Positions 1,169 through 23,803 of a stretch of DNA of 64,000 nucleotides are shown one piece after another. This stretch comes from a virus: positions 32,001 to 96,000 of IMG/VR virus record IMGVR_UViG_3300046010_015054, one strand, 5' to 3'. The notes under the pieces were generated by a model. The model saw only the letters and a list, made by a program, of their open reading frames with translations. It was not told the origin of the DNA and made no database searches. Positions within the stretch are counted from its first letter, which is position 1. Each line of letters opens with the position of its first letter. The position numbers were made by a program, and so were the translations under genes.

Positions 1169-1829
1169 GTCTGGTTAGGATATATAAGTTATTAGTAATC
1201 GTATTTATAAATTCTTCTTCAACCCATTGAACTTTACCTAAACCTACTTGATTTACCATTGGTAGATACCAATTATGCATAGCTATATTTACATTATAAG
1301 ATGGGTTAATCTCCATTTCATGAATAGAATCTATAACATTTCCTAACATATTATAAGGAAATACTACAAAAGTATCATTTACAATGGGTAAATGAGTAAA
1401 TTCAGGTTCTCTCCAAAGAAAATTAAATTTAGTAAAATCAAAATTATATTCTTTAAATGGATTTTTTAAAAATTTAATATCAAATCTAGTAGATATTACT
1501 AAATCTAAATCTTGATTTCTCATTTGTTCTAAACTAACAATGTAAATAGAAGATATAGCTTTAAAATTACCTACTTTATCACCTCCTCCTAATTGATTAT
1601 AAGAAGAAGGAGCAATAATGAAGTTTTTAGGTGAGTAATATTTTTGTATGTCTTCTATTTCAGAATTAAGATAAGTACAAAGATAAAATGAAATTTCGTG
1701 TCCTTCTTCTTTTAGAGGATTAACAATGTGCTCAAAAAATTCGTTTATAGCGTCTTTATAGTTCCTATATCGACCGAAAACCCCATCATTATAGGACACC
1801 CCAACTAAATTTATACCGATTTTCATCAA
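1161..1829 (-). CDS. putative glycosyltransferase of the 'KIAxxxxG...RxD' orphan family
   Basis: MKIGINLVG start, DLVISTRFDI motif, VNDTF; resembles the adjacent gene. Confidence 0.5.
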   Translation of the reverse strand: MMKIGINLVGVSYNDGVFGRYRNYKDAINEFFEHIVNPLKEEGHEISFYLCTYLNSEIEDIQKYYSPKNFIIAPSSYNQLGGGDKVGNFKAISSIYIVSLEQMRNQDLDLVISTRFDIKFLKNPFKEYNFDFTKFNFLWREPEFTHLPIVNDTFVVFPYNMLGNVIDSIHEMEINPSYNVNIAMHNWYLPMVNQVGLGKVQWVEEEFINTITNNLYILTRHE

Positions 1830-2530
1830 CTTATAACTTTATCTGAGATGATATTTCCATTTTGGTCACCCCACCAGAGCCAGTTATCTCTTAAAAGTTG
1901 AAATTGGAGAGATAGATTTTTTTGAGAATAAGTTATTAAACCTGCTCTATTCACTATTTCAGTCCAACTTTCTTCAGCACTACCTAAATAACCTTTTTCT
2001 TGTGAGTAATTAATTAACTTGTAAAATACCCCCCAATATAATTTTTCAGCATTTTGGTAATTAGTAATACATAAATTATCATCAAGAAAATTACCATCAC
2101 TACTATGATTAACTAAACTATGATCTAAATTTTCTAAATTTAAAGGTTGAAAAATACCTAAATCATATCTACTTCTAATTATAACATCATATTGAATTTG
2201 AGTATCATACATTTGTTGATAAACATTTTGCCAACTATAAACCATTGGAAATTGTCTAAAACAACTCATTACATCATATTGAGGTAAAGGTCTGGAAGTA
2301 TCGTTATGAGGTAGTTTTATACCTTCTTTATATTTAGTAAATTTGAAAGGTTCCTGTATGTGGGTTGATTTAGCATTAGGATAAAATTGAGATATTTTAT
2401 TCCATTCTTCATCTTTCCAAGCATGTAGATAGATATCTACATCATAATTATCTATAAGATGCCCCCAAGTAGCTTTATATCCTTCTTCTACCTTTCTAGC
2501 AAGACCTGATAGTAGTAGTGCTACTTTCAT
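1826..2530 (-). CDS. putative glycosyltransferase of the 'KVALxxSGxxR...RxRxD' orphan family
   Basis: MKVALLLSGLAR, DIYLHAW, YDVIIRSRYD, DDNL and late E motif, typical of uncharacterised polysaccharide-locus proteins. Confidence 0.55.
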   Translation of the reverse strand: MKVALLLSGLARKVEEGYKATWGHLIDNYDVDIYLHAWKDEEWNKISQFYPNAKSTHIQEPFKFTKYKEGIKLPHNDTSRPLPQYDVMSCFRQFPMVYSWQNVYQQMYDTQIQYDVIIRSRYDLGIFQPLNLENLDHSLVNHSSDGNFLDDNLCITNYQNAEKLYWGVFYKLINYSQEKGYLGSAEESWTEIVNRAGLITYSQKNLSLQFQLLRDNWLWWGDQNGNIISDKVIS

Positions 2531-3905: not shown

Positions 3906-3907
3906 CT

Positions 3908-7066: not shown

Positions 7067-7071
7067 GAAAA

Positions 7072-7260
7072 CTATTTTTCTATTTCTAAATTATTGTGGT
7101 TATGTAATTGTTTTCTAAAATTCTCATCAGTAAGATATAAATGAATAGCTCGGTCGGCAAGTTTTTGAAACGAAAACTTATGTCTTACACACGAAACTTT
7201 AAATTCATTAAATAAATCACTTTGGATTTTTACACTGGTTAATGTCATATCTTTTGCCAT
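7072..7260 (-). CDS. small ribbon-helix-helix-like DNA-binding protein
   Basis: 62 aa; TSVKI strand followed by two predicted helices (DLFNEFKVSC; SFQKLADRAIHLYL). Confidence 0.5.
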   Translation of the reverse strand: MAKDMTLTSVKIQSDLFNEFKVSCVRHKFSFQKLADRAIHLYLTDENFRKQLHNHNNLEIEK

Positions 7261-7284
7261 ATTTATATAATTTTATATACGAAC

Positions 7285-7292
7285 ATACATAT
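7285..7292 (-). promoter_or_regulatory. putative phage late promoter motif ATAT(G/T)TAT
   Basis: ATATGTAT on the minus strand ~25 nt upstream of the RHH gene; the same motif precedes most structural genes. Confidence 0.4.
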
Positions 7293-7308
7293 ATCGGGAT
7301 TTACATTT

Positions 7309-8253: not shown

Positions 8254-8255
8254 AA

Positions 8256-9350
8256 CTATTCTTTTATAAATCTAGTATTTAATTCTAAAATATTTTGAGG
8301 AGATACTTTATTTGTAAATTCTTCTACTACTCCGTTTCTTATATTTTTATTAAATACTATATATTCTCCTTCTAAATCTAATTCATCATAACACCACGTA
8401 AAAGGATTAAGTGAAATGTTTTTATGATAAATTTCTTTCCCTTCTAAATTAATAACCTTACATTCAATCTCCAAGCTATCTTCTTCATTCCAGTAAAATA
8501 AACCTATTTTATTAGTAAGTTCTTTTTTATCATTTTTATGTAAAAGAATTTTACAAACTTTAGGTATATTTTTCCATTTATCTACCCACCCTCCAGGATT
8601 ATTAATAAGATCAAATTTAGAATTAGGATATTGATCTCTAACACTTCCTGGGTGGTTTATACCTTTAAATGGGTATTTTTGTTTTTGGTAATAAAATATT
8701 GTTGGGATAATATATTCAATCCATTTACCATAATAGTTAATTTTTTTACATAAATCCCAATAGTCTTTATCATTATTTACTAGATTAAAACCGGTAAATA
8801 AATCTGTAGAAAAGCCTACCATATGAACATCCATTAATCTATGATGAGGTTTGGCCCAATCTCCTTCTTGACGTTCACCATATAAAAGAAAATGTTCAAA
8901 TGTTTCTAGGTCATTTTTTAAAGATTCTAAATCATTTAGATCAAATTCGGTATCAGCTTCAATTCTAAAAATACGTTTATAACCTAAATTTTCAGCTGCT
9001 GTGCTAGCAAATATAAAACTATTGTAAATATTAGCAGTATGATCTTGAACACCTACTAAGGGTAACCAATTTTCATGGGTACCCATAGATGTTTTTACAT
9101 AAACATAAGGACGTTCATATAATTCTTTATCTAAAAGTTCTTGAGGGGGATGCCCTATCATAAATCCTCCTGTATGATTCCAGTAATGTTTTACTTTAGA
9201 ATCTAACCCCCATGAAAATGAAAATTTATTAAATAAAGCAATTTCATATGGTAAAATTGAATTAAGTTGATCTATTAAATTAGAACATACTTTTGCTCTT
9301 TCTGGGGTAGATAAATAACCATCTACAACTATTAATAGATCTGAGGTCAT
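8256..9350 (-). CDS. hypothetical protein, possible GT-A-like enzyme
   Basis: 364 aa ORF; GYKRIFRIEAD acidic motif; glycan island context. Confidence 0.4.
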   Translation of the reverse strand: MTSDLLIVVDGYLSTPERAKVCSNLIDQLNSILPYEIALFNKFSFSWGLDSKVKHYWNHTGGFMIGHPPQELLDKELYERPYVYVKTSMGTHENWLPLVGVQDHTANIYNSFIFASTAAENLGYKRIFRIEADTEFDLNDLESLKNDLETFEHFLLYGERQEGDWAKPHHRLMDVHMVGFSTDLFTGFNLVNNDKDYWDLCKKINYYGKWIEYIIPTIFYYQKQKYPFKGINHPGSVRDQYPNSKFDLINNPGGWVDKWKNIPKVCKILLHKNDKKELTNKIGLFYWNEEDSLEIECKVINLEGKEIYHKNISLNPFTWCYDELDLEGEYIVFNKNIRNGVVEEFTNKVSPQNILELNTRFIKE

Positions 9351-11803
9351 ACTTTTATGATATTTGTGTAAATAATCTTATTAGTATATTCTTCTACTAT
9401 TCTAGTTTCATAATAACCTGAGTTTAGAAATAAATCACTTAAGAAAAAACTCCAATATTTAAAAATTTCTTGATAATTTAAAGTATAAAGAATCTGATCA
9501 TTGTTTAATATTTCAAATCTAACAACAGGTTGGAGATTTTTATCTCCTAAAAACGAATTTTTAGTCCACCAAAAAGAATTATTTTTGTATTCAATTAAAA
9601 AATCATCTTGAGATAATATCGTTTTAAAATAATTTTCTTTTAATTGGTTTTGAAATTCAGGATTTTTAAACCCATGAAATGCAATTAAATCATTTTCATG
9701 TTGAGGTAAGACTAATTCATCAGATACTGGATGTTTGCCATATTTGTAGTTATGGAATATTTCCATATCAACGTATGGGATTTCTTCAATATCTACTAAT
9801 GGGAGGCATTTTCTGTAATTATATCTATTAATTAATAAATTAGCAGAATCTTCATCATGTAAAGCAAATATACCTGGTTTAGTATTTTTGTAAGTATTAA
9901 ATAAATTAATTTGTTCTTCAAAAAACCATTTACAAGTTTTATCAAAAACAATTACATTAGTTTTTCTTCTAGGATAAACATGAACTGGGTCACCTGTAAC
10001 ATCTGCTAAAATATTTAAAGGGCTAGACCATTCTTCTCCTTCAATTAAATTCATAACAACAATCCTATCGTGAGTATGTGAATTTATTAAAGGAAATCCT
10101 TCTAAATGCTTAAAGTATTTAACTATAGAATCAGCATTTACTGTCAAAGAAATATCTGTATCAACGTACACAAATTTACTTTCGGGAAGATATTCAACTA
10201 CATCTGTTAAAATAGAAGGCTTTAAGGATAATACATTATCATATTTACCTCTAGCATTTAATTCACCTAATTCAACATCTAATCTTCTTACTATAAATTG
10301 ATCACTTAGTTTAAAAGCTAAATCTGAGGTATAGTTTATAGTATAAAGAATACATTTTCTATTAGAAAATTGTTCTATTGAATTAATTAAAACCTGAAGT
10401 AAAGATTCATAATTTTTAGTAAAATGGGTTACCCAATAAAAATCTTCTAAATAAACTTTTTTATATTCTGAAATTATAGAATTTCCTCTAAAGGATAATT
10501 TTGTATAAGGTTTATTATAGAAATGGTGAAGCATAATTTCCTTATCTTTACAATAAGTTTTACCCCCAACCCAAGTAGCTCCATAAATTACTTTACCTGA
10601 TTCTTCTTCTAGATTTTGACTATAAGTAATTACTTTAACTTTTTTATTTTGAGTAGCCCAATCATTCAAATCCTTTTCTCCTATACCATAAATTTCTTTA
10701 GTATCAAAAATATTATAATATCTTTCAGTCTGGAATTGGTTTAGTATTTCAGGATCATTTTTAAAAATTAATAAAGGACCTCCTAATCTATTATGAAAAT
10801 TTTCTCCTCCAGTACTTATAAAATCATATTCTCCTAAATAAGGATTTACCCAATTGTACAGATCACCCATTAAAGTGTCTATATCAAAAATACCAAAATA
10901 GTCATACTTTGAATAATCAATTATGTCGCTAAACATATTTACAAAGTATGAAAACTTTAAATCAGTAATTTTTTTATTACCTCCTAAAAGTTGTAATTCT
11001 CTATTATTAGCACGACTAAATCTTTGTTTTAATTCTTCTATATTTAAAGGAATAATATTATAATTAGAAGGTAAATTAGAAATATCTACTTCTTGATCTG
11101 TAAAAAAGTAAATATCAAAAATTTCATTTTGCTTTGTAATAGTTTCTTTATGAAACTGATAATAATCTGGTAAAGGTCCTAACCAAACTTCAATTAATAA
11201 TACTTTGGGTTGAGAGTTATATTTTAAAATAACATCTCTTTTAGCATTAAATTCTATAAATGAATATCCTACACTTTTAGCTTTATTAATAGTATCTATT
11301 CTAGTTTGGTCTGGGGTTAATTCATTAGCTTCAAAAATAATAGTTTCAGGGTATACATTATGTCCTCCTTCTAGGATATTATTAACAATAATAGTATCGT
11401 GCCCTTCAGCATCTATTTTTAAAGTTTTAACACTTTCTATATTATACCTTTCTACTAAATCTTTCCAAGTAAGAACTTCTACTTCATCTATTTTTAAAAG
11501 ATGTTCTAAACTTCGTTCTTTTAACTCTCTAAGAGTAACAGGATGAGGTTCACCAATAGAATTACAACCTTTTAAATACCAAGAAAGATTATTAGATTCT
11601 ATGTCTTCAGGTTCAACATAATAAACCTGAGTAATTCCTGAATAGTTACTAATGGCATGGTTTAATTTAGTAACTTTTTCTTTATTTGGTAGGCGATTAA
11701 GGTATAAATTAACAGCATCTATAGATAATCCTATTTCATCAGTTGAGGATTGGATAAGAGTTTCAAAATCAGAAGTACCTATTTCTATAAAATCGTAATT
11801 CAT
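9347..11803 (-). CDS. three-domain fusion: FkbM-type methyltransferase plus two putative glycosyltransferase domains
   Basis: N-term FIEIGTSD...LKIDAEGHD (FkbM); middle VWLGPLPDY...DLK...YDYFGIFDID (DUF6625-like GT); C-term KPSIL...FVYVDTD (GT-A DxD). Confidence 0.7.
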   Translation of the reverse strand: MNYDFIEIGTSDFETLIQSSTDEIGLSIDAVNLYLNRLPNKEKVTKLNHAISNYSGITQVYYVEPEDIESNNLSWYLKGCNSIGEPHPVTLRELKERSLEHLLKIDEVEVLTWKDLVERYNIESVKTLKIDAEGHDTIIVNNILEGGHNVYPETIIFEANELTPDQTRIDTINKAKSVGYSFIEFNAKRDVILKYNSQPKVLLIEVWLGPLPDYYQFHKETITKQNEIFDIYFFTDQEVDISNLPSNYNIIPLNIEELKQRFSRANNRELQLLGGNKKITDLKFSYFVNMFSDIIDYSKYDYFGIFDIDTLMGDLYNWVNPYLGEYDFISTGGENFHNRLGGPLLIFKNDPEILNQFQTERYYNIFDTKEIYGIGEKDLNDWATQNKKVKVITYSQNLEEESGKVIYGATWVGGKTYCKDKEIMLHHFYNKPYTKLSFRGNSIISEYKKVYLEDFYWVTHFTKNYESLLQVLINSIEQFSNRKCILYTINYTSDLAFKLSDQFIVRRLDVELGELNARGKYDNVLSLKPSILTDVVEYLPESKFVYVDTDISLTVNADSIVKYFKHLEGFPLINSHTHDRIVVMNLIEGEEWSSPLNILADVTGDPVHVYPRRKTNVIVFDKTCKWFFEEQINLFNTYKNTKPGIFALHDEDSANLLINRYNYRKCLPLVDIEEIPYVDMEIFHNYKYGKHPVSDELVLPQHENDLIAFHGFKNPEFQNQLKENYFKTILSQDDFLIEYKNNSFWWTKNSFLGDKNLQPVVRFEILNNDQILYTLNYQEIFKYWSFFLSDLFLNSGYYETRIVEEYTNKIIYTNIIKV

Positions 11804-12381
11804 TATTTTATTTTTTTAGCGGGAATCCCCACATAAACCCCAGATTCTTCTATAGGTTTTACTACGCATGAATTCATACCAATGGTAGATGAGCTATGGA
11901 TTGAAAGTTTTTCTTTAATAGACGAGTTAGTACCCATATAAACCATATCAAATATGGTAACATTACCTGATACTATGGCTCCAGGCATAGCACTAAAATA
12001 AGAACCTATTTTACAATCATGACCAATTTGATTACCTCGATTCAAAATAGAATGTCTACCTAATTCAATATTTGTAGTTAATATGCTATTTACTCCTATA
12101 AAACTACCTACTCCTACTTTGATATTACTATCTAATATTTGAACTGTTGGATGAACAAAAGTAAAATATTGAGTTTCTTTAGGTAAACGTTGAACTATAT
12201 CAAAACGATCTTTTGGGTCAGCTACGGCAACCATCATAGCATATTCTTGAGGATTAAACTCAGAAATAGGCTTAGCTACATCATTAGCATACTGATCATC
12301 TACAAAAAATGTAACTTCATCTTCAATCTGACATGCTACTTCTCTTGCATGTCCTCCATAACCGAATAGTGCTAATTTCAT
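11803..12381 (-). CDS. NeuD/PglD-family sugar acetyltransferase (left-handed beta helix)
   Basis: FGYGGHAREV, HPT, hexapeptide repeats, IGHD, GIPAK. Confidence 0.9.
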   Translation of the reverse strand: MKLALFGYGGHAREVACQIEDEVTFFVDDQYANDVAKPISEFNPQEYAMMVAVADPKDRFDIVQRLPKETQYFTFVHPTVQILDSNIKVGVGSFIGVNSILTTNIELGRHSILNRGNQIGHDCKIGSYFSAMPGAIVSGNVTIFDMVYMGTNSSIKEKLSIHSSSTIGMNSCVVKPIEESGVYVGIPAKKIK

Positions 12382-13037
12382 TGTTGATAAATTGGGAATT
12401 TAGATAGATCTGGGTATGGTAGAGTTAAATCTTCGTTTTGTTTTTTACTACCATCTAAATTATAAAATTGATTCATAAGTAATAAACCACGAGCTGCTAA
12501 TTCAGGCATCATATAAAAATTCCACCCTAGCATATCAAGATTATCGTCATGATATGAACACTCACGTCTTCCTGAATATCTGGCTCTTTTGAACCAATGA
12601 TAAGCTGCTAAATTATCAGTTAAGATAGCTCCTCCTTTACTTAATTTAAAATGTTTATATGGGCCCGTAAAAGAAATACACATATGGGTTCCTTTTAAGT
12701 ACATATCTGCTGTAAATCTTAAAGCAGAATCATACACATTACTATTACCTAATTCATAGGCTCCAGTTAAAGTACCCTTTTTTGTATCTAAACATCCGTA
12801 ATTTTTAGTAAACTTAACTTTTAAACCAGCATGAATAATTTCACAAGGTACAGATGGGTAAGTTCGATTTGGGATAATAATATGATCACTAATAATACTT
12901 TTCTTTACATTTTTTTCATAATATAAAGCTAAAAATAAAGCATTAGACATGTTATCTAATGTAACGACATAAGGGGCCCCAGTATAATCACCTAGGGCTT
13001 TTTCAAACTCGTTTGTTATATCATAAACGTTTTTCAT
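12378..13037 (-). CDS. short DegT/DnrJ/EryC1/StrS-family PLP-dependent enzyme
   Basis: EFEKAL, NALFLAL, YDSA, SF-x4-KH, GGAILTD, GWNFYM; lacks the C-terminal small domain. Confidence 0.75.
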   Translation of the reverse strand: MKNVYDITNEFEKALGDYTGAPYVVTLDNMSNALFLALYYEKNVKKSIISDHIIIPNRTYPSVPCEIIHAGLKVKFTKNYGCLDTKKGTLTGAYELGNSNVYDSALRFTADMYLKGTHMCISFTGPYKHFKLSKGGAILTDNLAAYHWFKRARYSGRRECSYHDDNLDMLGWNFYMMPELAARGLLLMNQFYNLDGSKKQNEDLTLPYPDLSKFPIYQQ

Positions 13038-13446
13038 ATTCCATCTTAATATAATTTCTATCTCTTACAAATCCACGCTCACCTGTTTCTTTAAAACCTA
13101 ATTTTAAATATAAATCTTTAGCAAAATTATCACTAAAAACCCATAAACTAGCATAAGTTTTATCTTTTAGATACTCTTGATAAGCAGCTTTAGCATATCC
13201 TTGTTTTCTATGTAAAGGATGGATATCACATCCAACTTCATCTCCATTAGTTCTTAAATAACCTACAGCTTCTAAGTGTTTATTAATTATAATATACCAA
13301 GGAGATGTTAAATTACTAAACCAGCTTTCACATTGTTCAAGATTAAAAATAGAATTATTCTCTAAATTTCTTCTAGTTGAATAATCATTTCTAACTTCTA
13401 AAAGAAATGGTAAATCTTCTTTAGTTAAAAGTCTTAATGTTACCAT
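13021..13446 (-). CDS. GNAT N-acetyltransferase (PseH-like)
   Basis: LRLLTKEDL, HRKQGYAK (motif A), N-x2-A-x2-LYLKLGF. Confidence 0.8.
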   Translation of the reverse strand: MVTLRLLTKEDLPFLLEVRNDYSTRRNLENNSIFNLEQCESWFSNLTSPWYIIINKHLEAVGYLRTNGDEVGCDIHPLHRKQGYAKAAYQEYLKDKTYASLWVFSDNFAKDLYLKLGFKETGERGFVRDRNYIKMEYEKRL

Positions 13447-14633
13447 CCTTTTTTAATACAATCAGCAATGTATTCTCTTTCTTCAGGAGTAACCCACCAA
13501 CCAACTGGGATTGAAACTATTTTTCCAATTGTTTTATCCAATGTAGGGAGTGAAGTTCTAAATTCTTTAACGGCTGTATGCTTATCATTTCTTTCATGTA
13601 CTTGAGATACAGCAATTTTACATTCATCCATCCAACGATAGAAACCATCTCTATTGTCAACTAACATTGAGTAAATCCAAAAAGAACTTTCATGACCAAA
13701 ATGACGATCTAAAAGAGTTACACCCTTAACATCATTAAGATTTGAATCATAAAAAAAAGCATTTTCTTTATGTTTATTTACTATTGAGTTGATGTGTTTT
13801 AGATTTTCTATACCAATAGTCGCATTAACATCATTCATGTGGAATTTATAACCCCACTCTTCAATATTGGCTTCACAACGGAAATCTTTACGATCACCAT
13901 CTCTGTCAATTCCATACCAACGAATTAATTTACCTCTATCATGTAGTTCTTTATGAGGTGAAAGAAGTAAACCACCGTCTACTGAAGTAAGGTGTTTAAT
14001 TGCTTGAAGAGAGAACATAGTTAGATTACCATGACTTCCAATTGGTTTGTTTTTATAGTAAGAACCAAATGAATGAGCTCCATCTTCAATTACAGCAGGT
14101 TTAAAACCATACATGTGATAGGCTTTATTCTGTATTTGTTTAATTTTATCTAAATCGTTAGGGTACCCACCCCAATGGACTAACATTATAGCTTTGGTTG
14201 TGGGGCTAATTTTACGAGCTAAGTCATCCAAATCCATATTAAGTGTAGTAGGGTCAATATCTACCCACTTAATTTTTAAACCATGAGCTAAAATAGGCCA
14301 ATTTGAAGCAGTACACGTCATAGCTGTAGCTAACACTTCATCTCCAGGTTGTAAGCCTGGCCAATTGGTTTCGTATCCTATAACTCCTTCAAAAACTTTA
14401 TTATAAGTAGCAGGTTTTTTTAATAAATGAAGTGCTAAATGTAAAGCAGAAGTTCCAGAATTTACGGTTTGAACATAATCATGATTAAAATAGGTTTTAA
14501 GTTGATTTTCAAACTTTTCAACTTGGGGACCTTGACCAATGTAGCCACTGTTAAGAACTTTTGTTACCTCTTCAGCAGCGGTATCCGCCATGAATACTTT
14601 AAATAATGGAATTTTATTTTTTGGACTAAACAT
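13440..14633 (-). CDS. DegT/DnrJ-family NDP-sugar aminotransferase
   Basis: NSGTSALHLAL, VHWGG, IEDGAH, FSLQAIKHLTSVDGG, GYKFHM. Confidence 0.9.
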   Translation of the reverse strand: MFSPKNKIPLFKVFMADTAAEEVTKVLNSGYIGQGPQVEKFENQLKTYFNHDYVQTVNSGTSALHLALHLLKKPATYNKVFEGVIGYETNWPGLQPGDEVLATAMTCTASNWPILAHGLKIKWVDIDPTTLNMDLDDLARKISPTTKAIMLVHWGGYPNDLDKIKQIQNKAYHMYGFKPAVIEDGAHSFGSYYKNKPIGSHGNLTMFSLQAIKHLTSVDGGLLLSPHKELHDRGKLIRWYGIDRDGDRKDFRCEANIEEWGYKFHMNDVNATIGIENLKHINSIVNKHKENAFFYDSNLNDVKGVTLLDRHFGHESSFWIYSMLVDNRDGFYRWMDECKIAVSQVHERNDKHTAVKEFRTSLPTLDKTIGKIVSIPVGWWVTPEEREYIADCIKKGW

Positions 14634-14634
14634 A

Positions 14635-15075
14635 TTATTTATATTTTTCTATATAATCACTACAAACACCAAGTGTTTTTTCGTTAGGTTCTTTATTAAA
14701 TACTTCGGGCATAACTAAAATACCTCTTTCAAATAAATTTGTTGACCAAATATAACCCTTAGATGTTAAAACACCAAGGTCATTTTCATGCCAAAAATAA
14801 TTTACTTTATCACCATTTTGATCTAATTGATTTAATGTAGATAAAGCAGCCATATTTTTACAATGAATCCAAAGATTAGGATAGTTTTTATCTAAAAGAT
14901 CAAAAGGAAATTCATATTGTGGTTCATCATGCCCAAGCATAAATTTTCCGTTTTCAAGCCAAACATCAATTTCAACATCATATCCTGCTTTTAAAGCTTC
15001 AAAAATATATTCTGGGTGGTTTTCGCGTTCAGGGTTGGGGCCTGAAATGTTTCCGCGGTGTGATATTAATTTCAT
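14635..15075 (-). CDS. minimal glycerophosphodiester phosphodiesterase/PLC-like protein
   Basis: ISHRGN, EN, DVEIDV, LGHD, WIHCKN, GVCSD motifs of a truncated GDPD TIM barrel. Confidence 0.75.
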   Translation of the reverse strand: MKLISHRGNISGPNPERENHPEYIFEALKAGYDVEIDVWLENGKFMLGHDEPQYEFPFDLLDKNYPNLWIHCKNMAALSTLNQLDQNGDKVNYFWHENDLGVLTSKGYIWSTNLFERGILVMPEVFNKEPNEKTLGVCSDYIEKYK

Positions 15076-15767
15076 TTTTTAATTATTATTGACATATTAT
15101 TTCCTAAAGGTTCTTTAATTTTTATAATAGGTAAAACACCAAATAATTTTTTTAGAAACTTAATTACTTTAGGTGTCATAAACTCAGGAAATATATCGTG
15201 AAGTACAATTATATATTCTTTATCTAATAAAGGATAAATTGCTTCTATATCTTTTATTAATTGATCAGGAAAATGTCCTCCATCAATAAAAATAAAGTCT
15301 AAAGGCTCTGTAATGTGCTTTTTAATACATTTTTCAGTATCATTAGGACTCCAACCTATTTCTAAAAAAACATTATCTTTTAAATCAAAATGTTCTATTA
15401 AGTAATTAGCAGATTTATAACCATCTGCATCATAAAACAATGAAGGATTTTGATTTTCATAAGTCCAAAAAGAATTTACTTCTTCTTCAATATAGGCATC
15501 CATTGAAACAAGTTTACCTCCTGTTTGTTTAAATCCTAATCCTAAAGCGGTTGTACTAATGCCAAACGCTGTAGCTATTTCAAAACCATTTTTACAATTA
15601 TATTCTACTATAGTATTTTTTAAAAATTCAAATTCAGTAGGTCTAATTGAATAAGGAAAATCATGACCAACCATTTTTAAATTTTTACCTAAACCATATT
15701 CTCCAGGAGCTATTTCATACTGAACAGGTCCATCTTTTAGATTAAGTAGATTTTCAAAATAGTCCAT
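15072..15767 (-). CDS. class I SAM-dependent methyltransferase (Methyltransf_24-like)
   Basis: FEIATAFGIST, DFIFIDGGH, IVLHD. Confidence 0.8.
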   Translation of the reverse strand: MDYFENLLNLKDGPVQYEIAPGEYGLGKNLKMVGHDFPYSIRPTEFEFLKNTIVEYNCKNGFEIATAFGISTTALGLGFKQTGGKLVSMDAYIEEEVNSFWTYENQNPSLFYDADGYKSANYLIEHFDLKDNVFLEIGWSPNDTEKCIKKHITEPLDFIFIDGGHFPDQLIKDIEAIYPLLDKEYIIVLHDIFPEFMTPKVIKFLKKLFGVLPIIKIKEPLGNNMSIIIKK

Positions 15768-15769
15768 AA

Positions 15770-16420
15770 TTATTTTATTTTAGCAAATCCAATCCCCCAA
15801 TCATCTTGTTGCTCACAATATTGAGTAACTTCAAAAATATCTGGGTTTAGGTTTTTAATAATTCTACTAGGGCCTGGGTGATAATTTGTGTCATGGAAAC
15901 CTATTACCCCACCAGGTGCCATGAAATCAACATACCAAAGTTCATCAATAACTTGATTAATAGAATGCCAACCATCTACAAATAAAAAGTCAATTTGAGA
16001 TATTTTTAGAGCATCTAATTTAGCTTGAATTTTTTCATAATCTTCACTTTTAGATTGTAAAGTAAAAATATTTCGACCCATTCCCTGTAAGAATGTTTTA
16101 TCATCAATATCAATTCCTAAATAAATAGCTTTAGGATTTTTATGTTTTAAAAGTATAGAGGTTGAAGTTTGGTCGTAGGATTGGTTATAAGTAATTCTTG
16201 AAACACCAATTTCGACAATAACCTTAGTTTGGTCTTTTACTTTAGTAAATTCTTCGGTCAATGCTGCTTGGTTGCACATTGAAAATTCTTTGTTCCCTAC
16301 TAATTCAAAAGGGTTAGGGAATTGAGGTATAAAATCTTTATCGTTATCTTCTAAATTTTCTAGTCTAATATCATTTACAAGATATTTTTGTATATTATGT
16401 TTTCTAAAGTTGTTTTCCAT
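15770..16420 (-). CDS. class I SAM-dependent methyltransferase (Methyltransf_24-like)
   Basis: IVEIGV, GIDI, DFLFVDGWHS, PGGVIGFHDT. Confidence 0.8.
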   Translation of the reverse strand: MENNFRKHNIQKYLVNDIRLENLEDNDKDFIPQFPNPFELVGNKEFSMCNQAALTEEFTKVKDQTKVIVEIGVSRITYNQSYDQTSTSILLKHKNPKAIYLGIDIDDKTFLQGMGRNIFTLQSKSEDYEKIQAKLDALKISQIDFLFVDGWHSINQVIDELWYVDFMAPGGVIGFHDTNYHPGPSRIIKNLNPDIFEVTQYCEQQDDWGIGFAKIK

Positions 16421-16430
16421 TTTATTATTA

Positions 16431-17666
16431 TTAAAAAATTCTATATGCTAAATCTTCAGAAAACTCTTCTTTACCCCATTTTTCAATAGCAGCTTTATAT
16501 TCAGGTTTATCTGTTTCGTGATTAATTGCTTGTTTCATAGCTAAACCACCTGCTAAAGTTCCCATAGGATGACCATGTAATGCTCCTCCTACATTAGCTA
16601 ACCAATCATTACTTTCTAACGACTGATTAATAAATTGAACTAGTCCTGGGTGCATACCGCAACTTAAAGCAGGGACAATATTGTAATGCCAAAGTACTTT
16701 TAAGGCATCTCTTAATTCTTCTTCGTCTTGATTCATGTAACCACCAATCATACCAGCGTGGATTGAATCAGCACCTGACCATCCTGCTATCTTACATATT
16801 ACAGGCCAGTAAATATGGAATGGTGCTCTTCTATCTGTAAAGAATTTATCACCACTCTTTTGGAAGTGAATCCATAAACAAGGATTTTGTTTTCTAATTG
16901 CTCTGTATATTCCTAATCCACTCCAAACGTTAATGTGAATGCCATTTCCACCATTATCTGCTACAAATTTAGCTCTTTCTAAGGCATATGGGCTATCCCC
17001 ATTTATACAAAAACAATAAATAACGTCAGGAGCATTTTCTTTAAGCCATGATGCAATCAAAGGTACTCTTACTTCAAGAGGACAATGTTCTGGGTTAGCT
17101 AATAATTCATCTTCTTTAATAAAATTAACTCCCCCATAAACCATTTCTTTTACTGCTTCTAGTAGTACTTCAGGACTCATCCCTACTTTAGGTTTAATAA
17201 TACCTCCTAAAAATGGTTTGTCATAAACCTTATTAAATTTTCTCCAACCATCAATTCCGTAGGCAGGTTTTAAAGCAAATTGTTCCTCTACTTTTTCTGG
17301 GAGTTGGATATCAAGTACTTGGCATTTTTGAATTTCTAAGATATCAACTTGACCACCTGCTATATGGCATAAAATTTGAGAAATACCATCTTCTTCAAGA
17401 TTAATATTAGCTAAAGGAAATGCTATTTTTACATTTCCTGCTTTAGTAGATTTAAGATATTCTTGATTAGCTAAAATAAAACAACTATGGTTTTCAAACA
17501 TTTCTTCTGTTTCCCATATACTTCTATTATTAGGATTACCTATACTTTGACCTATAGCTAAATTCCAAGCTGCTTCTCGAAGTGAAGTTTTTGCTTCTAA
17601 ATAATAAGTAACTATAAAGTATTTTTCTTTATTTATTTCTTCTTCTGTTCTAAAAATTTTAATCAT
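16431..17666 (-). CDS. RuBisCO-like protein (form IV RLP), non-carboxylating
   Basis: GGIIKPKVG, FIKEDE carbamate/Mg motif, DSIHAG, PALSCG, GGALHGHP; loop-6 Lys replaced by Tyr. Confidence 0.9.
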   Translation of the reverse strand: MIKIFRTEEEINKEKYFIVTYYLEAKTSLREAAWNLAIGQSIGNPNNRSIWETEEMFENHSCFILANQEYLKSTKAGNVKIAFPLANINLEEDGISQILCHIAGGQVDILEIQKCQVLDIQLPEKVEEQFALKPAYGIDGWRKFNKVYDKPFLGGIIKPKVGMSPEVLLEAVKEMVYGGVNFIKEDELLANPEHCPLEVRVPLIASWLKENAPDVIYCFCINGDSPYALERAKFVADNGGNGIHINVWSGLGIYRAIRKQNPCLWIHFQKSGDKFFTDRRAPFHIYWPVICKIAGWSGADSIHAGMIGGYMNQDEEELRDALKVLWHYNIVPALSCGMHPGLVQFINQSLESNDWLANVGGALHGHPMGTLAGGLAMKQAINHETDKPEYKAAIEKWGKEEFSEDLAYRIF

Positions 17667-17669
17667 AAC

Positions 17670-17990
17670 TTATACTATATACTTATCTCCTTTTACACTA
17701 GGGGTTTTTACAACTATTAGTTCACAATTAGTTAAAAATTCAGGAACTGCTACTTCACCCGGGTGTAGAATAAATATATCACCCTTTTTTAAGTAAGTCC
17801 CGCTTAACTTCATCTTCCCACGAATAATATAATTTATTTCAGTAGCTACTTTGTGGTAGTGGTTATCCCAAATTTCTCCTTTTGGGTGAAACTTATAACT
17901 AACTTCAAATTCTTTTGTAGAATAAGCAGTTGGTTCGAAGTCACCTACAAACCAACCACCTACCATATTTTTACCTTTTAAAACGTCCAT
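17670..17990 (-). CDS. cupin-domain protein
   Basis: GGWFVGDF, HYHKVATE metal motif, GDIFILHPGE, DKY C-terminus. Confidence 0.8.
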   Translation of the reverse strand: MDVLKGKNMVGGWFVGDFEPTAYSTKEFEVSYKFHPKGEIWDNHYHKVATEINYIIRGKMKLSGTYLKKGDIFILHPGEVAVPEFLTNCELIVVKTPSVKGDKYIV

Positions 17991-19363
17991 TATTTAAAAT
18001 TTTCAAGATAATACGTTAACTCTTCAGGGGTACCTAATCCCCACATATCATCTTTATCAATCATAAAACATGAAATATGTTTATCATCTTGAATAGCTTC
18101 ATTATATACAGGACAAACATAAAATTCATTATTTACCCTAATATTTTTAGAAATCATTTGTTCAGCATATTTTACAAAGTCTGAACCTTGTTTCCAGTAA
18201 TACATTCCAACTGTTGCATTATCTGAGATTGGGTTTTTTTCTGCTACTTCGGTTACTCTATTATTTTCATCTACTTTAGCAAATGACCATTTAGGATGAG
18301 TGCCTTTAAAACATAAAATACCTCCATCAACACTAGTTTCATTCATTTTATAAAAGAATTCATTTGAATCCCAAATAATATGTTGATCTGAATTAGCAAA
18401 CAAAAGTGGAGAATCATTATCAATATATTCTTTAGCTAATAAAGCAGTACAAGCAGCACCTTCGGTTACACCATCTACTTCTATAATTTTACATCCTGGA
18501 GTAAGTAAATTGAGTAGAGTATCTAAGTTGTATTTTTCTCTATGTTCTTTTTGTACTGCATAGATAAAATTAGCTTTAATGTTAAGCATTTCAACTACAA
18601 CTTGAATCATAGGTTTACCTTTAACATCAATTAAAGGTTTAGGGAATGTATAACCCGCTTGAGCAAATCTAGAACCTGCTCCAGCCATTGGTATAATTAC
18701 ATTTAATTTATTATCTCTCCAAGCAGGTGATTTCATGACGTATCCTTTTTCTATTTCTGTTAATTTATTAAAAATATTTGTATAAGTAACTTCTTTTGGA
18801 TTTTTTACTCTTAAAATATGTGATTTACTTCTTGAAGCTGCTAATAATCCATAAGGTGAATCTTCTACAATAAGTGTTTCTTCTGGGAGGCAACTCATCA
18901 TAGAAATAGCCTTCCAATACATTTCAGGGTGTGGTTTGCTATTTTTAACGTCTTCGTTAGAAATAACTAAATCCATAAATTCCATTATCCCTAACTTAGA
19001 AAGTACAGTTAATACTGTTTTTCGAATGCTATTAGAACAAACTGCTAGTTTATAACCGCTTTCAGATAAAGATGACATCATTAATTGAAATTCTTCATTC
19101 GGTTTAAGGGCACGAAGTTCTTCTAAAGTATATTTTTGTTTATCTTCCCAAACTTTAGAATGTAATTCAACTGGTAAACCTTTTTCCTTAGTTAACATTT
19201 CAAGTTTTTGATTGGTTTTTAAACCATCATATTTACTTAAATGTTCTTTCCAACTAATAGAATATTCATTCCCTAAAGCTTTATTTAGGGCTTCATAATG
19301 AAGATTTTTAGCTTCAACTAATACTCCATCTAAATCAAAAATAATTAACTTTATCATTTCCAC
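17990..19363 (-). CDS. HAD-IA phosphatase fused to sugar-phosphate nucleotidyltransferase
   Basis: N-term FDLDGVL, SNS, KPHPE, EDS; C-term IPMAGAGSRF, PKPLI, TEGAACT, NSD, EK, EFYV, GLGTPE. Confidence 0.85.
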   Translation of the reverse strand: MEMIKLIIFDLDGVLVEAKNLHYEALNKALGNEYSISWKEHLSKYDGLKTNQKLEMLTKEKGLPVELHSKVWEDKQKYTLEELRALKPNEEFQLMMSSLSESGYKLAVCSNSIRKTVLTVLSKLGIMEFMDLVISNEDVKNSKPHPEMYWKAISMMSCLPEETLIVEDSPYGLLAASRSKSHILRVKNPKEVTYTNIFNKLTEIEKGYVMKSPAWRDNKLNVIIPMAGAGSRFAQAGYTFPKPLIDVKGKPMIQVVVEMLNIKANFIYAVQKEHREKYNLDTLLNLLTPGCKIIEVDGVTEGAACTALLAKEYIDNDSPLLFANSDQHIIWDSNEFFYKMNETSVDGGILCFKGTHPKWSFAKVDENNRVTEVAEKNPISDNATVGMYYWKQGSDFVKYAEQMISKNIRVNNEFYVCPVYNEAIQDDKHISCFMIDKDDMWGLGTPEELTYYLENFK

Positions 19364-19716
19364 TTATTTCTCATAACTAGCTGGGCAATGATTCCATAGT
19401 TTGAAATGTCAATAAAACTATCAATTGCGGCTTCTCCTGCTACGTAATTTTTACCATTACGCTTAAGAATATTCTTTAAGCGATTGATTTTATCATTACA
19501 GCGAAGCCAGATGCCTGTGATTGAAAGGTTTATATCATCTTGGTCTTCGAGTGTTGAGCCCAAAGCAATATTACCTAGACCGTAATCCATCATTTTAGCA
19601 GCGAACAATTCATATTGTTCCTCTTGAATTTGCTTAAATTCAGCTGCTAATTCAGGGTATGTTTTTTGAAAATCTGTAACTGCTTTTGAATTACCGTAAC
19701 CTGCTTGTTCTTCCAT
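19354..19716 (-). CDS. DUF1599 / nucleotide-modification-associated all-alpha domain protein
   Basis: K-x2-DYG, R-x2-DK-x2-R, D-x3-D-x2-NY pattern. Confidence 0.7.
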   Translation of the reverse strand: MEEQAGYGNSKAVTDFQKTYPELAAEFKQIQEEQYELFAAKMMDYGLGNIALGSTLEDQDDINLSITGIWLRCNDKINRLKNILKRNGKNYVAGEAAIDSFIDISNYGIIAQLVMRNKWK

Positions 19717-19717
19717 T

Positions 19718-20395
19718 TTATTTATTGTTTATGTAAATTATAACTTCATTATAGTATTCTATAAAATGCTCATTCCACAAATCCCATTTTATATCTATCC
19801 CATCTACAGAATATACAGCATGATTTGGAAAAAGCCTAAGGAAAACATCCCTAAATACTCTAAATTGTTGTTTTAGTTCTGGGGTAGATAGATGCCATTC
19901 ACCTACTGCTACTCCTAGATTATCTTTTAACCAACAAAGATTTTCAAAATTAAAAATACTATATTCTCCTCCTTCACAATCTGTTTTAAGAAAATCTATC
20001 TTATTAATATTATTTTCTTTTAGTAAAGTTTTAAATGAAATACCCTCTAATGTTGAAGATTTTGTTGGATCAAAAATTTCAGTAGTAGCTAATTCACCAT
20101 CAGTAGGTGTTATAGCTTTTTTAATAATAGTAACAGGACCTCCTTGTGTATTTTTTTCTAAAGTAGGGTGTTCAATTACTGATGGTTCTATACAAAATAC
20201 TTTAGATGGATTTTTATGAAGTATAGAATAAGTAAAAGGACCAATGCTAGAACCAACATCTAATACAATATCACCTTCTTCAACTTCAAAAAACTTTTCG
20301 TATAAATTTTGTTCAAAAATTTCAAATGTAATAGCCTTTTGGTGAAAAGCATCTCCTTCAGCCATCCAACCCCAGTCAAAACCTTTTAAATCCAT
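19718..20395 (-). CDS. FkbM-family methyltransferase
   Basis: VLDVGSSIG, CIEP, IDFLKTDCEGGE, GEWH. Confidence 0.85.
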   Translation of the reverse strand: MDLKGFDWGWMAEGDAFHQKAITFEIFEQNLYEKFFEVEEGDIVLDVGSSIGPFTYSILHKNPSKVFCIEPSVIEHPTLEKNTQGGPVTIIKKAITPTDGELATTEIFDPTKSSTLEGISFKTLLKENNINKIDFLKTDCEGGEYSIFNFENLCWLKDNLGVAVGEWHLSTPELKQQFRVFRDVFLRLFPNHAVYSVDGIDIKWDLWNEHFIEYYNEVIIYINNK

Positions 20396-20396
20396 A

Positions 20397-20813
20397 TTAA
20401 AGTTTTTTAATTAACTTATCTTGTTCTTTAACGTCAACTCCCATTTCCCACAAAATATGTCGAACACCTGGTTCTCGAATTATATCAATATAGTGATCAG
20501 CTTCACCTAAACTACATTCATAATATTTTGCTATGTATTCTACTACTTCTTGTGGTTTTATTTTTTTATTTGATTTAGTGTATTTTAAAAATACATTTTT
20601 CTTGGGAATCATTTGACAATAAATGGTATAATATTTTTCTTTTTCGGTAAACGGGATTGTTTGGACATAATTTACAAATTCTATATAATTAACATCCATC
20701 GATAAATACCGATTAATCATGAAAACATTAAAAGACTCGCGATCTTTCTCAGAAAAATTTTCCCAAGGTGTTTTATTGGTTGTTATTTCTTTTAACCAAT
20801 CAAACAAATTCAT
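20397..20813 (-). CDS. clamp loader small subunit (T4 gp62-like)
   Basis: FDWLKEI, FMINRYLS, IAKYYECS...A pattern; adjacent to gp44-like gene. Confidence 0.7.
   Translation of the reverse strand: MNLFDWLKEITTNKTPWENFSEKDRESFNVFMINRYLSMDVNYIEFVNYVQTIPFTEKEKYYTIYCQMIPKKNVFLKYTKSNKKIKPQEVVEYIAKYYECSLGEADHYIDIIREPGVRHILWEMGVDVKEQDKLIKKL

Positions 20814-22147: not shown

Positions 22148-23803
<1,656 letters not shown>

What the first reader, a model, noticed from the sequence alone, without database searches (positions are those of the whole stretch)
14635..19363. Phage RuBisCO-like protein wired into a sugar-activation module (RLP + HAD-nucleotidyltransferase + cupin + mini-phosphodiesterase): candidate undescribed pathway to a rare activated ketose or branched sugar
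Seen: a tightly coupled run of HAD phosphatase-nucleotidyltransferase fusion, cupin, form IV RLP, two methyltransferases and a minimal GDPD-like protein, inside a ~20 kb glycosyltransferase island. No methionine-salvage, sugar-acid catabolic or transporter genes are nearby. Established: characterised RLPs enolise ketose-phosphate-like substrates in methionine salvage or catabolism; RuBisCO misprotonation yields the C3 epimer xylulose-1,5-bisphosphate, which a HAD-IA phosphatase (CbbY) dephosphorylates. From memory and unverified: nucleotidyltransferase/HAD/small-PDE gene sets occur in capsule loci that add ketofuranose (fructose) branches. Inference: this RLP is anabolic. It would epimerise, isomerise or rearrange a host ketose phosphate, with the cupin as a further epimerase/isomerase, the HAD trimming a phosphate and the nucleotidyltransferase activating the product for the island's orphan transferases, to decorate virion proteins, DNA or the host surface.
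Basis: partly seen in the sequence, partly recalled or inferred. Interest (0 to 1): 0.92.

Follow-up and report, generated by a model that had tools for sequence, protein, structure and literature searches.

The report
Phage RuBisCO-like sugar-activation gene cassette
A lake-water T4-like phage carries a RuBisCO relative that cannot fix CO2 and that, in phages and a few bacteria, almost always sits beside a sugar-activating enzyme, a small isomerase-like cupin and a miniature phosphodiesterase, which points to an untested sugar-building job for this enzyme family.

Summary
In detail: all six genes lie at the stated coordinates on the minus strand, packed with gaps of 10 nt or less.

The RLP keeps RuBisCO's Mg-carbamate enolisation residues but lacks the carboxylation residues. 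It scores far below every curated RLP or RuBisCO model. With its homologues it forms one well-supported clade.

Linkage is specific to that clade.
- Among 68 dereplicated loci, a nucleotidyltransferase lies within 5 kb in 63, the cupin in 51 and the mini-GDPD in 50.
- None of these occurs in 62 loci of other RLP clades.
- Fusions exist: NTase-cupin, RLP-NTase and miniGDPD-DUF7796.
- Bacterial copies sit among surface-glycan genes.

This supports an anabolic, donor-building role. The chemistry remains unknown.

- The HAD domain is not a core part. HAD-NTase is a sub-lineage that also occurs without an RLP in cyanophages.
- The methyltransferases are optional.
- A DUF7796 protein is the likeliest transferase partner.

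Phage RLPs were reported in 2019 with unknown function. This scan has already found the same cassette on many other genomes.

The parts
16431..17666 (-). RuBisCO-like protein, 411 aa. It belongs to the NTase-linked 'form IV-like' clade. The enolisation residues are kept and the carboxylation residues are lost.
   Evidence: Pfam PF00016 107 bits. Every NCBIfam equivalog scores far below cut-off. Active-site table. Clade support FastTree 100 and SH-aLRT 100.
17670..17990 (-). Minimal metal-binding cupin, 106 aa, with an invariant H44/H46/E51 triad. It resembles a phosphosugar isomerase.
   Evidence: Alignment A2. Model pLDDT 97. Foldseek best hits are Thermococcus cupin phosphomannose isomerases 7zvy and 7zvm, E about 1e-5, 25% identity. 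Profile hits to cupins in the PDB. Present in 51 of 68 RLP loci.
17990..19363 (-). Fusion of a HAD-IA domain (sugar-phosphatase / beta-phosphoglucomutase type, residues about 1-205) with a sugar-phosphate nucleotidyltransferase (about 216-457). It is the only NTase in the phage genome.
   Evidence: Pfam and NCBIfam. PDB neighbours of the HAD domain. NTase family profile against the PDB. Sole NTase in the genome. The sub-lineage is nested in the RLP-linked NTase family. 59% identical orthologues occur in cyanophages without an RLP.
14635..15075 (-). Miniature GDPD-like phosphodiesterase, 146 aa. Both catalytic His residues and the metal ligands are kept (H6, R7, E18/N19, E35, D37, H49).
   Evidence: Alignment A3. 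Profile against the PDB hits GDPDs at E 2e-5. Model pLDDT 95, with all top Foldseek hits GDPDs but weak. Present in 50 of 68 loci. Fused to DUF7796 in L078.
15770..16420 (-). SAM-dependent methyltransferase (Methyltransf_24, weak match). It is an optional cassette member.
   Evidence: Pfam 27 bits. Homologues lie next to the RLP in 13 of 68 loci.
15072..15767 (-). Second SAM-dependent methyltransferase (Methyltransf_24). It is specific to this lineage.
   Evidence: Pfam 42 bits. No homologue was found in any of the other RLP loci.
1826..2530 (-). DUF7796-family protein with an R-x-R-x-D motif. It is the candidate transferase that uses the cassette's product. In this phage it lies 12 kb from the cassette.
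   Evidence: Pfam DUF7796, E 6e-5. The family occurs in 39 of 69 RLP loci, and within 5 kb in 36. It abuts the mini-GDPD in 17 of 47 loci and is fused to it in L078. 20 of 39 aligned members match PF25072.
13440..14633 (-). DegT/PseC-like sugar aminotransferase, 1 nt downstream of the mini-GDPD. It is part of the island, not of the conserved cassette.
   Evidence: Pfam 239 bits and NCBIfam PseC 200 bits, below cut-off. Linked to the RLP in 4 of 68 loci.
19354..20395 (-). Upstream neighbours: a DUF1599 (Nmad1) protein that overlaps the HAD-NTase start by 10 nt, and an FkbM methyltransferase. Neither is a conserved cassette member.
   Evidence: Pfam. Each is linked in 1 of 68 loci.

Best explanation
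The RLP is the defining enzyme of a conserved biosynthetic cassette (NTase, cupin, RLP, mini-GDPD, often DUF7796). The cassette makes a nucleotide-activated sugar-like unit for glycan decoration.

Shown:
- The RLP keeps the Mg2+-carbamate enolisation machinery (K175, K177, K201, D203, E204 in spinach numbering) and the proximal phosphate site (G381, G403, G404).
- It lacks E60, N123, H294 and K334, so it cannot carboxylate.
- Eight changes are invariant across the clade: E60G, T65N, N123G, H294Q, R295K, H298D, K334Y and G380C.
- The distal pocket stays polar and cationic (K295, H327, S379), unlike the hydrophobic pocket of an MtnW-like RLP.

Inferred pathway:
1. The RLP enolises a ketose phosphate or bisphosphate drawn from central metabolism and isomerises or epimerises it. 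The invariant Cys380 may serve as the second base.
2. The PMI-like cupin performs a further aldose-ketose isomerisation.
3. In this phage the fused HAD domain moves or removes a phosphate.
4. The NTase makes the NDP- or NMP-linked donor.
5. The methyltransferases modify it, and a DUF7796 protein transfers it.
6. The mini-GDPD handles a phosphodiester at or after the transfer step.

Two sub-routes stay open: an NDP-aldose made in the PMI/GMP manner (odds about 3), and a donor linked through a non-anomeric phosphate, like CDP-ribitol (odds about 2).
For: Linkage:
- Within 5 kb of the RLP, the NTase occurs in 63 of 68 dereplicated loci, the cupin in 51 and the mini-GDPD in 50.
- None occurs in 62 loci of other RLP or RuBisCO clades.
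- All NTase-linked RLPs form one clade (FastTree 100, IQ-TREE C20 SH-aLRT 100).
- A member only 29% identical keeps the order RLP, 107 aa, NTase, 143 aa.

Fusions:
- NTase-cupin in 7 loci.
- RLP-NTase as protein P0124.
- miniGDPD-DUF7796 in L078.
- HAD-NTase in the window.

Bacterial contexts:
- Legionella next to LicD; Azospirillum next to CysD/CysNC and a GT41.
- Francisellaceae with a weak Wzz match and a GT2; Elusimicrobia with an ABC exporter.
- 5 of 24 genomes of the Legionella nautarum genus hold it.

Enzyme similarities:
- Active-site table.
- The cupin's nearest folds are minimal phosphomannose isomerases.
- The NTase profile matches GDP-mannose pyrophosphorylases and RmlA.

Parallel case: cyanophage S-SKS1 fuses a homologous NTase (28% identity) to DHBP synthase, another enzyme that enolises ribulose-5-P. 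It sits beside a DUF7796 gene, a C-methyltransferase and a GT.

Presence in samples:
- Identical DNA contigs occur in a lake-water run not marked as the source.
- RNA-library contigs 97-99% identical lie on the RLP gene. This is only a weak hint of expression.
Against: - No enzyme of the cassette has been assayed. Substrate, product and nucleotide are all unknown.
- The cupin is missing from 11 of 56 fully flanked loci and the mini-GDPD from 12, so only RLP plus NTase is near-obligate.
- Cultured cyanophages carry the orthologous HAD-NTase and mini-GDPD with no RLP. The NTase can therefore be fed without an RLP.
- Four phage lineages carry both a stand-alone NTase beside cupin-RLP and a separate HAD-NTase. 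In this window the HAD-NTase may not be the RLP's native partner.
- The RLP-NTase fusion rests on one 2.5-kb contig.
- The cupin and GDPD similarities are at fold or motif level only.
- The order of steps (RLP before or after nucleotidylation) is inferred.
Confidence: 0.62

Rival explanations
1. In this phage the HAD-NTase and the RLP are not in one pathway. The HAD-NTase, mini-GDPD and DUF7796 form an activation-and-transfer core, as in cyanophages without an RLP. The RLP-cupin pair lost its own stand-alone NTase and serves another role or none.
For: - HAD-NTase orthologues (59% identity) and the mini-GDPD occur in S-CAM9, S-PRM1 and related cyanophages with no RLP.
- L012, L035, L067 and L086 carry both a stand-alone NTase next to cupin-RLP and a separate HAD-NTase.
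- The window has only the HAD-NTase.
Against: - The HAD-NTase clade (support 98) also contains stand-alone NTases that directly abut RLPs (L069, L075, L080, L091, L094).
- In the window the HAD-NTase sits exactly where the stand-alone NTase usually sits, overlapping the cupin gene by 1 nt.
- The RLP is intact and keeps every clade-invariant active-site residue.
Confidence: 0.15
2. The RLP and cupin are a salvage pair, like MtnW/MtnD or the MTA-isoprenoid shunt of Rhodospirillum rubrum (an RLP isomerase plus a cupin methylsulfurylase). They would recycle methylthio- or deoxy-ribose phosphates during infection.
For: - RLP plus cupin (plus HAD) echoes MtnW, MtnD and MtnX.
- A cupin follows the RLP in the MTA-isoprenoid shunt (papers listed, e.g. 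PMC5893883; pathway details from established knowledge).
Against: - MtnW models score 92-125 bits against cut-offs of 409-514.
- The clade is separate from an MtnW-like representative, and its sister group also fails all equivalogs.
- The distal pocket is K/D/H/S where the MtnW-like protein has I/A/V/A.
- No MtnA or MtnB family hit in the genome.
- The constant partner is an NTase, and the bacterial contexts are glycan loci.
Confidence: 0.07
3. The cassette supplies a sugar donor for DNA hypermodification rather than for protein or surface glycans.
For: - A DUF1599 ('nucleotide modification associated domain 1') gene overlaps the HAD-NTase start.
- T4-like phages are known to glycosylate DNA (established knowledge).
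Against: - DUF1599 is linked to the RLP in only 1 of 68 loci.
- The only thymidylate-synthase-family gene scores 322 bits, which looks like an ordinary ThyA, though it was not separated from a hydroxymethylase here.
- Bacterial copies lie with weak-Wzz, GT2, ABC-exporter, LicD and GT41 genes.
Confidence: 0.1
4. The RLP is a residual nucleotide-salvage RuBisCO of the AMP / ribose-1,5-bisphosphate pathway type that still fixes CO2 onto RuBP.
For: Its best NCBIfam score is to form III RuBisCO (155 bits). IF-2B-RuBisCO fusions turned up among distant hits.
Against: - 155 bits is far below the 497-bit cut-off.
- E60, N123, H294 and K334 are replaced in all 31 clade members.
- No IF-2B family gene in the genome.
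Confidence: 0.02

Closest known systems
'Form IV-like' RuBisCO-related proteins of phages and Beckwithbacteria (Jaffe, Castelle, Dupont & Banfield 2019, Mol Biol Evol; PMC6389311)
   Same: These are phage-borne proteins, some on myovirus-type genomes. They are highly divergent from all characterised RLPs, lack carboxylase residues and branch outside the named form IV groups. The window's protein fits this description, and its clade includes CPR, DPANN and phage sequences.
   Different: In the passages read, that paper left the function open and described no gene neighbourhood for the phage proteins. Shown here are the clade-specific linkage to the NTase, cupin, mini-GDPD and DUF7796 genes, the fusions, the invariant active-site signature, and members in cultured Legionella and Azospirillum. 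I could not compare directly with their sequences.
Bifunctional type II phosphomannose isomerase / GDP-mannose pyrophosphorylase (ManC/AlgA type: NTP_transferase plus cupin)
   Same: An NTP_transferase-family NTase is paired with, and in 7 loci fused N- to C-terminally to, a small metal cupin. The cupin's nearest solved folds are cupin phosphomannose isomerases, and the NTase profile hits GDP-mannose pyrophosphorylases.
   Different: There is no match to the PMI Pfam family. Identities are only about 25%. An RLP and a mini-phosphodiesterase, which have no place in GDP-mannose synthesis, are constant partners.
MtnW/YkrW 2,3-diketo-5-methylthiopentyl-1-phosphate enolase, and the R. rubrum RLP plus cupin of the MTA-isoprenoid shunt
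   Same: Both are RLPs that use the carbamylated-Lys/Mg2+ site for enolisation without carboxylation. A cupin (and in Bacillus a HAD phosphatase) acts downstream.
   Different: The window's RLP fails the MtnW equivalog models, lies in a different clade and has a polar rather than hydrophobic distal pocket. No other salvage genes are present, and the constant partner is an NTase.
Nucleotide activation of non-anomeric sugar or polyol phosphates (CDP-ribitol, CDP-glycerol, CDP-6-fructose/glucitol of Campylobacter), transferred by LicD-type enzymes
   Same: A ketose- or polyol-phosphate made from central metabolism would be activated by an NTase and transferred as a phospho-unit. Legionella copies lie next to a LicD gene, and a GDPD-type phosphodiesterase fits phosphodiester chemistry.
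   Different: The NTase resembles sugar-1-phosphate NTases more than IspD, TarI or LicC types. LicD is found only in the Legionella loci. The Campylobacter precedent comes from memory and was not checked here.

Membership tests
RuBisCO large-subunit superfamily | N-terminal and C-terminal (TIM-barrel) RuBisCO large-chain domains | tested here: met
   PF00016 107 bits and PF02788 27 bits. 98 PDB RuBisCO or RLP sequences match at E up to 1e-33.
Carboxylating RuBisCO (forms I-III) | Full catalytic set, including E60, N123, H294 and K334 as well as K175, K201, D203 and E204 | tested here: not met
   K175, K177, K201, D203 and E204 are kept. E60G, N123G, H294Q and K334Y occur in all 31 clade members. 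The form III model scores 155 bits against a cut-off of 497.
MtnW/YkrW DK-MTP-1-P enolase | Scores above the equivalog cut-off and groups with MtnW | tested here: not met
   TIGR03332 scores 92 against a cut-off of 514, and NF007095 scores 125 against 409. The clade is separate from the MtnW-like representative P0165.
MtnW/YkrW DK-MTP-1-P enolase | Hydrophobic distal pocket for the methylthio group, and a methionine-salvage gene context | tested here: not met
   The pocket is K295/D298/H327/S379, against I/A/V/A in the MtnW-like protein. No MtnA or MtnB family hit in the genome.
OiaX/OiaC 3-oxo-isoapionate-4-phosphate decarboxylase RLPs | Scores above the equivalog cut-off | tested here: not met
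   NF042437 scores 114 bits against a cut-off of 700.
Phage/Beckwithbacteria 'form IV-like' clade (Jaffe et al. 2019) | Monophyletic with the published phage and Beckwithbacteria sequences | not testable with these tools
   Their sequences were not on hand. The described properties match, and the clade found here holds phage, CPR and DPANN members.
NTase-linked RLP clade (defined here) | One clade; NTase within 5 kb; invariant Q294/K295/Y334/C380 signature (D298 in 28 of 31) | tested here: met
   Support 100 in two trees. NTase in 63 of 68 loci against 0 of 62 controls. Signature present in all 31 members, including the window.
Cupin superfamily | Double-stranded beta-helix with HxH...E metal motif | tested here: met
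   H44, H46 and E51 are invariant. Model pLDDT 97. 173 PDB cupin matches at E up to 1e-3. Pfam cupin models match only weakly.
Type II phosphomannose isomerase (PF01050) | Match to the PMI family model | tested here: not met
   No Pfam hit. There is only fold-level similarity to the Thermococcus cupin PMIs.
Glycerophosphodiester phosphodiesterase (GDPD, PF03009) | Full (beta/alpha)8 GDPD domain above the Pfam cut-off | tested here: not met
   No Pfam hit even at E 10. The protein is 146 aa against about 220-250 aa for a GDPD. Foldseek E values are only 3e-3 to 1e-2.
Glycerophosphodiester phosphodiesterase (GDPD, PF03009) | Catalytic His pair and metal-binding Glu/Asp motifs | tested here: met
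   H6, R7, N19, E35, D37 and H49 are invariant in 56 sequences. The profile aligns these motifs to GDPDs 3i10 and 7e0v at E 2e-5.
Sugar-phosphate nucleotidyltransferase (PF00483) | NTP_transferase domain with the G-x-G-x-R signature | tested here: met
   PF00483 38 bits. G25, G27 and R29 are invariant in 50 homologues. The profile matches 4evw at 3.5e-36, then GDP-Man pyrophosphorylases and RmlA.
Beta-phosphoglucomutase (HAD-IA) subfamily | Scores above the subfamily or equivalog cut-off | tested here: not met
   TIGR02009 scores 96 against a cut-off of 153, and TIGR01990 scores 84 against 189. Generic HAD_2 scores 114 bits. Mutase and phosphatase cannot be told apart.

The most novel reading that the evidence does not exclude
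This RuBisCO branch is a biosynthetic sugar-phosphate isomerase or epimerase. It uses the ancient enediolate chemistry, with an invariant active-site Cys as second base, to turn a central ketose (bis)phosphate into a rare sugar. A dedicated NTase then activates that sugar, and DUF7796 transferases attach it, with a mini-phosphodiesterase step, to phage virion fibres or cell-surface glycans. That would be the first anabolic, glycan-building role for the RuBisCO superfamily, and a new nucleotide-sugar pathway shared by phages, SAR11-type hosts, CPR/DPANN organisms and Legionella.
Probability: 0.3. Interest if true: 0.85.

Novelty: new variant of a known kind. Interest (0 to 1): 0.7.

Why it matters
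All characterised RuBisCO-like proteins work in salvage or catabolism. A clade that is locked to a nucleotidyltransferase inside glycan loci would extend the superfamily to biosynthesis and would probably reveal a new activated sugar. The clade is abundant: over 2,000 homologues were found, and 366 viral contigs encode one. Near-identical DNA occurs in many lake and marine runs. Phage-directed glycan chemistry of this kind could therefore be common in aquatic infections. Cultured carriers (Legionella nautarum, L. maceachernii, Azospirillum oleiclasticum) make the question testable now.

Tried and rejected
- tblastn of the RLP against 50,697 cultured-phage records gave no match, so no isolate phage is on hand as a model.
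- Pfam and NCBIfam give nothing usable for the cupin, the mini-GDPD or DUF7796 function. The DUF7796 profile has no PDB relative.
- LicD as the general transferase is rejected. It is found only in the two Legionella loci and not in the phage.
- An SDR epimerase/dehydratase lies near the RLP in 20 of 69 loci but is absent from this genome, so it is not core.
- I first read the L078 fusion as methyltransferase-miniGDPD. BLAST shows it is miniGDPD-DUF7796.
- The promoter and terminator scan was uninformative: fewer promoter-like sites than in shuffles, and no minus-strand terminator inside the run.
- Four literature searches found nothing: RLP with nucleotidyltransferase and polysaccharide; RLP with virus and glycosyltransferase; DUF7796; and S-SKS1 DHBP synthase.
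- The genome search missed the genome's own PF00483 domain, so its negatives for MtnA, MtnB, LicD and SDR are weak.
- In the read laying, most RNA-library contigs were under 95% alike and parts of the stretch were barely covered. Nothing is concluded from the gaps.
No complex prediction was run, because I make no binding claim.

Full report
**What is there.** The window is bases 32001-96000 of a complete-looking 170,105-bp virus record. Its GC content is about 30%. It carries T4-type replication genes such as a gp44-like clamp loader, plus a GroEL-type chaperonin. Between 14635 and 19363 six minus-strand ORFs are packed with gaps or overlaps of 10 nt or less:
- a HAD-NTase fusion (457 aa);
- a 106-aa protein;
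- a 411-aa RuBisCO-family protein;
- two Methyltransf_24 methyltransferases;
- a 146-aa protein.

The 106-aa protein has an HxH...E triad that is invariant in 52 homologues. It folds at pLDDT 97 into a cupin. Its best PDB matches are the minimal cupin phosphomannose isomerases of Thermococcus (E about 1e-5, 25% identity), and the profile also matches cupins in the PDB. The 146-aa protein conserves the GDPD catalytic motifs (H6, R7, E18/N19, E35, D37, H49). Its profile matches GDPD structures at E 2e-5. It folds at pLDDT 95 into a stripped-down barrel whose top Foldseek hits are all GDPDs, though weak.

The surrounding island, from about 400 to 20400, holds a GT2, two GT4s, a DUF7796 protein, DegT, GNAT- and PglD-like enzymes and FkbM methyltransferases. 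One nuclease gene interrupts it.

**The RLP.** It scores far below cut-off for every curated model: form III 155 bits against 497, MtnW 92 against 514 and 125 against 409, and OiaX 114 against 700. I aligned it to a near-canonical form III sequence and an MtnW-like sequence.
- It keeps K175, K177, K201, D203, E204, H327, S379, G381, G403 and G404.
- It carries E60G, T65N, N123G, H294Q, R295K, H298D, K334Y and G380C.
- Seven of these eight changes are invariant, and H298D is nearly so (28 of 31), in the 31 clade members examined. These include bacterial ones only 35-39% identical.

The enolisation machinery and the proximal phosphate site therefore survive, while carboxylation residues are gone. 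The distal pocket stays polar and cationic, where the MtnW-like protein has I/A/V/A. I read this as arguing against methylthio- or deoxy-substrates and for a sugar phosphate or bisphosphate. That step is inference. The invariant Cys at position 380 is a candidate second base, which is also inference.

**Relatives and linkage.** The word-based protein search lists 2,234 homologues. Its best 120 are 78-94% identical. At 50% clustering the family thins gradually to about 30% identity. Scans returned 80 viral loci out of 366 confirmed, and 80 genomic loci.

After dereplication at 90% RLP identity, 68 loci remain. Within 5 kb of the RLP:
- an NTase homologue lies in 63 (52 of 56 loci with at least 3 kb on both flanks);
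- the cupin in 51;
- the mini-GDPD in 50;
- a HAD domain in only 3;
- the 15770-type methyltransferase in 13;
- DegT in 4.

None of 62 loci from other RLP or RuBisCO clades has any of these. All NTase-linked RLPs form one clade, with FastTree support 100 on a stem of 0.65 and IQ-TREE LG+C20 SH-aLRT 100. The sister group is another RLP set that fails all equivalogs. A member only 29% identical still shows RLP, a 107-aa gene, an NTase and a 143-aa gene.

Fusions tie the parts together:
- NTase-cupin in seven loci;
- RLP-NTase as P0124, on one contig only;
- miniGDPD-DUF7796 in L078.

The DUF7796 family has an R-x-R-x-D motif. It is the next commonest neighbour: 39 of 69 loci carry it, 36 of them within 5 kb. 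It abuts the mini-GDPD in 17 of 47 loci. In this phage its copies lie at window 1826-2530 and, beyond the window, at genome 97.8-99.3 kb.

**Bacterial carriers.** These sit in glycan settings:
- Legionella nautarum and L. maceachernii, next to LicD;
- Azospirillum oleiclasticum, next to CysD, CysNC and a GT41;
- a Francisellaceae single-cell genome, with a weak Wzz-like match and a GT2;
- an Elusimicrobia genome, with an ABC exporter.

Five of 24 genomes in the L. nautarum genus carry the RLP. This patchy spread suits an accessory surface-glycan trait.

**What is special about this window.** The HAD-NTase is a sub-lineage (support 98) nested in the RLP-linked NTase family. It groups with stand-alone NTases that directly abut RLPs. 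Orthologues at 59% identity, together with the mini-GDPD, occur in cultured cyanophages such as S-CAM9 and S-PRM1 that have no RLP. Four phage lineages carry both a stand-alone NTase beside cupin-RLP and a separate HAD-NTase. This phage has the HAD-NTase only, sitting in the stand-alone NTase's usual place. The domain cannot be assigned as mutase or phosphatase.

**Mechanism.** The NTase profile resembles sugar-1-phosphate NTases: the uncharacterised 4evw, then GDP-mannose pyrophosphorylases and RmlA. The cupin resembles PMI. Together they look like a PMI/GMP pair, with the RLP feeding it an unusual ketose phosphate.

An alternative is activation through a non-anomeric phosphate, as in CDP-ribitol. 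The LicD neighbour, the phosphodiesterase and a parallel in cyanophage S-SKS1 all suggest this. In S-SKS1 a homologous NTase is fused to DHBP synthase, another enzyme that enolises ribulose-5-P. That gene lies beside a DUF7796 gene, a C-methyltransferase and a GT. Neither route is shown.

**Known or new.** Jaffe et al. 2019 reported about 80 phage 'form IV-like' RLPs of unknown function. Full-text searches found no paper that links RLPs to nucleotidyltransferases or glycans. This scan has already recorded the same cassette in 53 findings on at least 33 other genomes. My results agree with those notes. They add the HAD-NTase paralogy, the polar distal pocket, the DUF7796 and mini-GDPD link, and the S-SKS1 parallel.

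**Occurrence.** Near-identical DNA is held by 17 runs from about 15 studies, mostly lake water. Contigs with no differences occur in a run not marked as the source. RNA-library contigs 97-99% alike lie on the RLP gene, which is only a weak hint of expression.

Noticed in passing
L177:4001-5428 (Synechococcus phage S-SKS1, SWZG_00042): A single 475-aa protein fuses an NTase homologous to the window's (28% identity) to a DHBP synthase domain (PF00926, 219 bits). Its neighbours are a DUF7796-like gene, a C-methyltransferase, a small HAD, a transaldolase-family gene and a GT. It may be a second way of feeding the same kind of NTase from ribulose-5-P.
   Followed up: partly
protein P0205 (metagenomic, 583 aa): A TIR domain is fused to the N-terminus of a full RLP from another clade (29% identity to the window's RLP). 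This may link an RLP to NAD-derived signalling or defence.
   Followed up: no
proteins P0155 and P0164: These are IF-2B (ribose-1,5-bisphosphate isomerase type) domains fused to a form III-like RuBisCO. Two steps of the AMP pathway sit in one protein.
   Followed up: no
window 12378-13037 (-) and 13440-14633 (-): A 219-aa ORF matches only the N-terminal 70 residues of the DegT aminotransferase family. It lies two genes from a full-length DegT. It may be a remnant or a split gene.
   Followed up: no
whole genome G000: The island encodes a DegT-type sugar aminotransferase, but no SDR 4,6-dehydratase or epimerase was found anywhere in the phage. The keto-sugar substrate must come from the host or from another enzyme of the island.
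   Followed up: partly
window 7309-8253 (-): A PD-(D/E)XK nuclease gene sits in the middle of the glycan island, between the glycosyltransferases and the sugar-modification genes.
   Followed up: no
window 19354-19716 (-): A DUF1599 ('nucleotide modification associated domain 1') protein overlaps the start of the HAD-NTase gene by 10 nt. It is linked to the RLP only in this lineage and a few others.
   Followed up: partly
window 22148-23800 (-): The phage encodes a GroEL/Cpn60-type chaperonin (PF00118, 232 bits) next to the clamp loader.
   Followed up: no
L104:6771-9568 (Azospirillum oleiclasticum) and L001:11047-11754 (S-CAM9): PAPS synthesis genes (CysD, CysNC) follow the cassette in Azospirillum, and a sulfotransferase lies in the cyanophage island. 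The final glycan may be sulfated in some carriers.
   Followed up: no
genome G000 97789-99299 (beyond the window): Two further DUF7796 paralogues lie outside the window, in a region that other first-stage notes describe as a collagen-like fibre and glycosyltransferase locus. Those notes are unchecked. The fibres are a possible target of the island's product.
   Followed up: no
The genome search on G000: The whole-genome family search found no PF00483 in this genome, although hmmscan finds it in the HAD-NTase. Negative results from that tool for weak family members should be read with care.
   Followed up: yes
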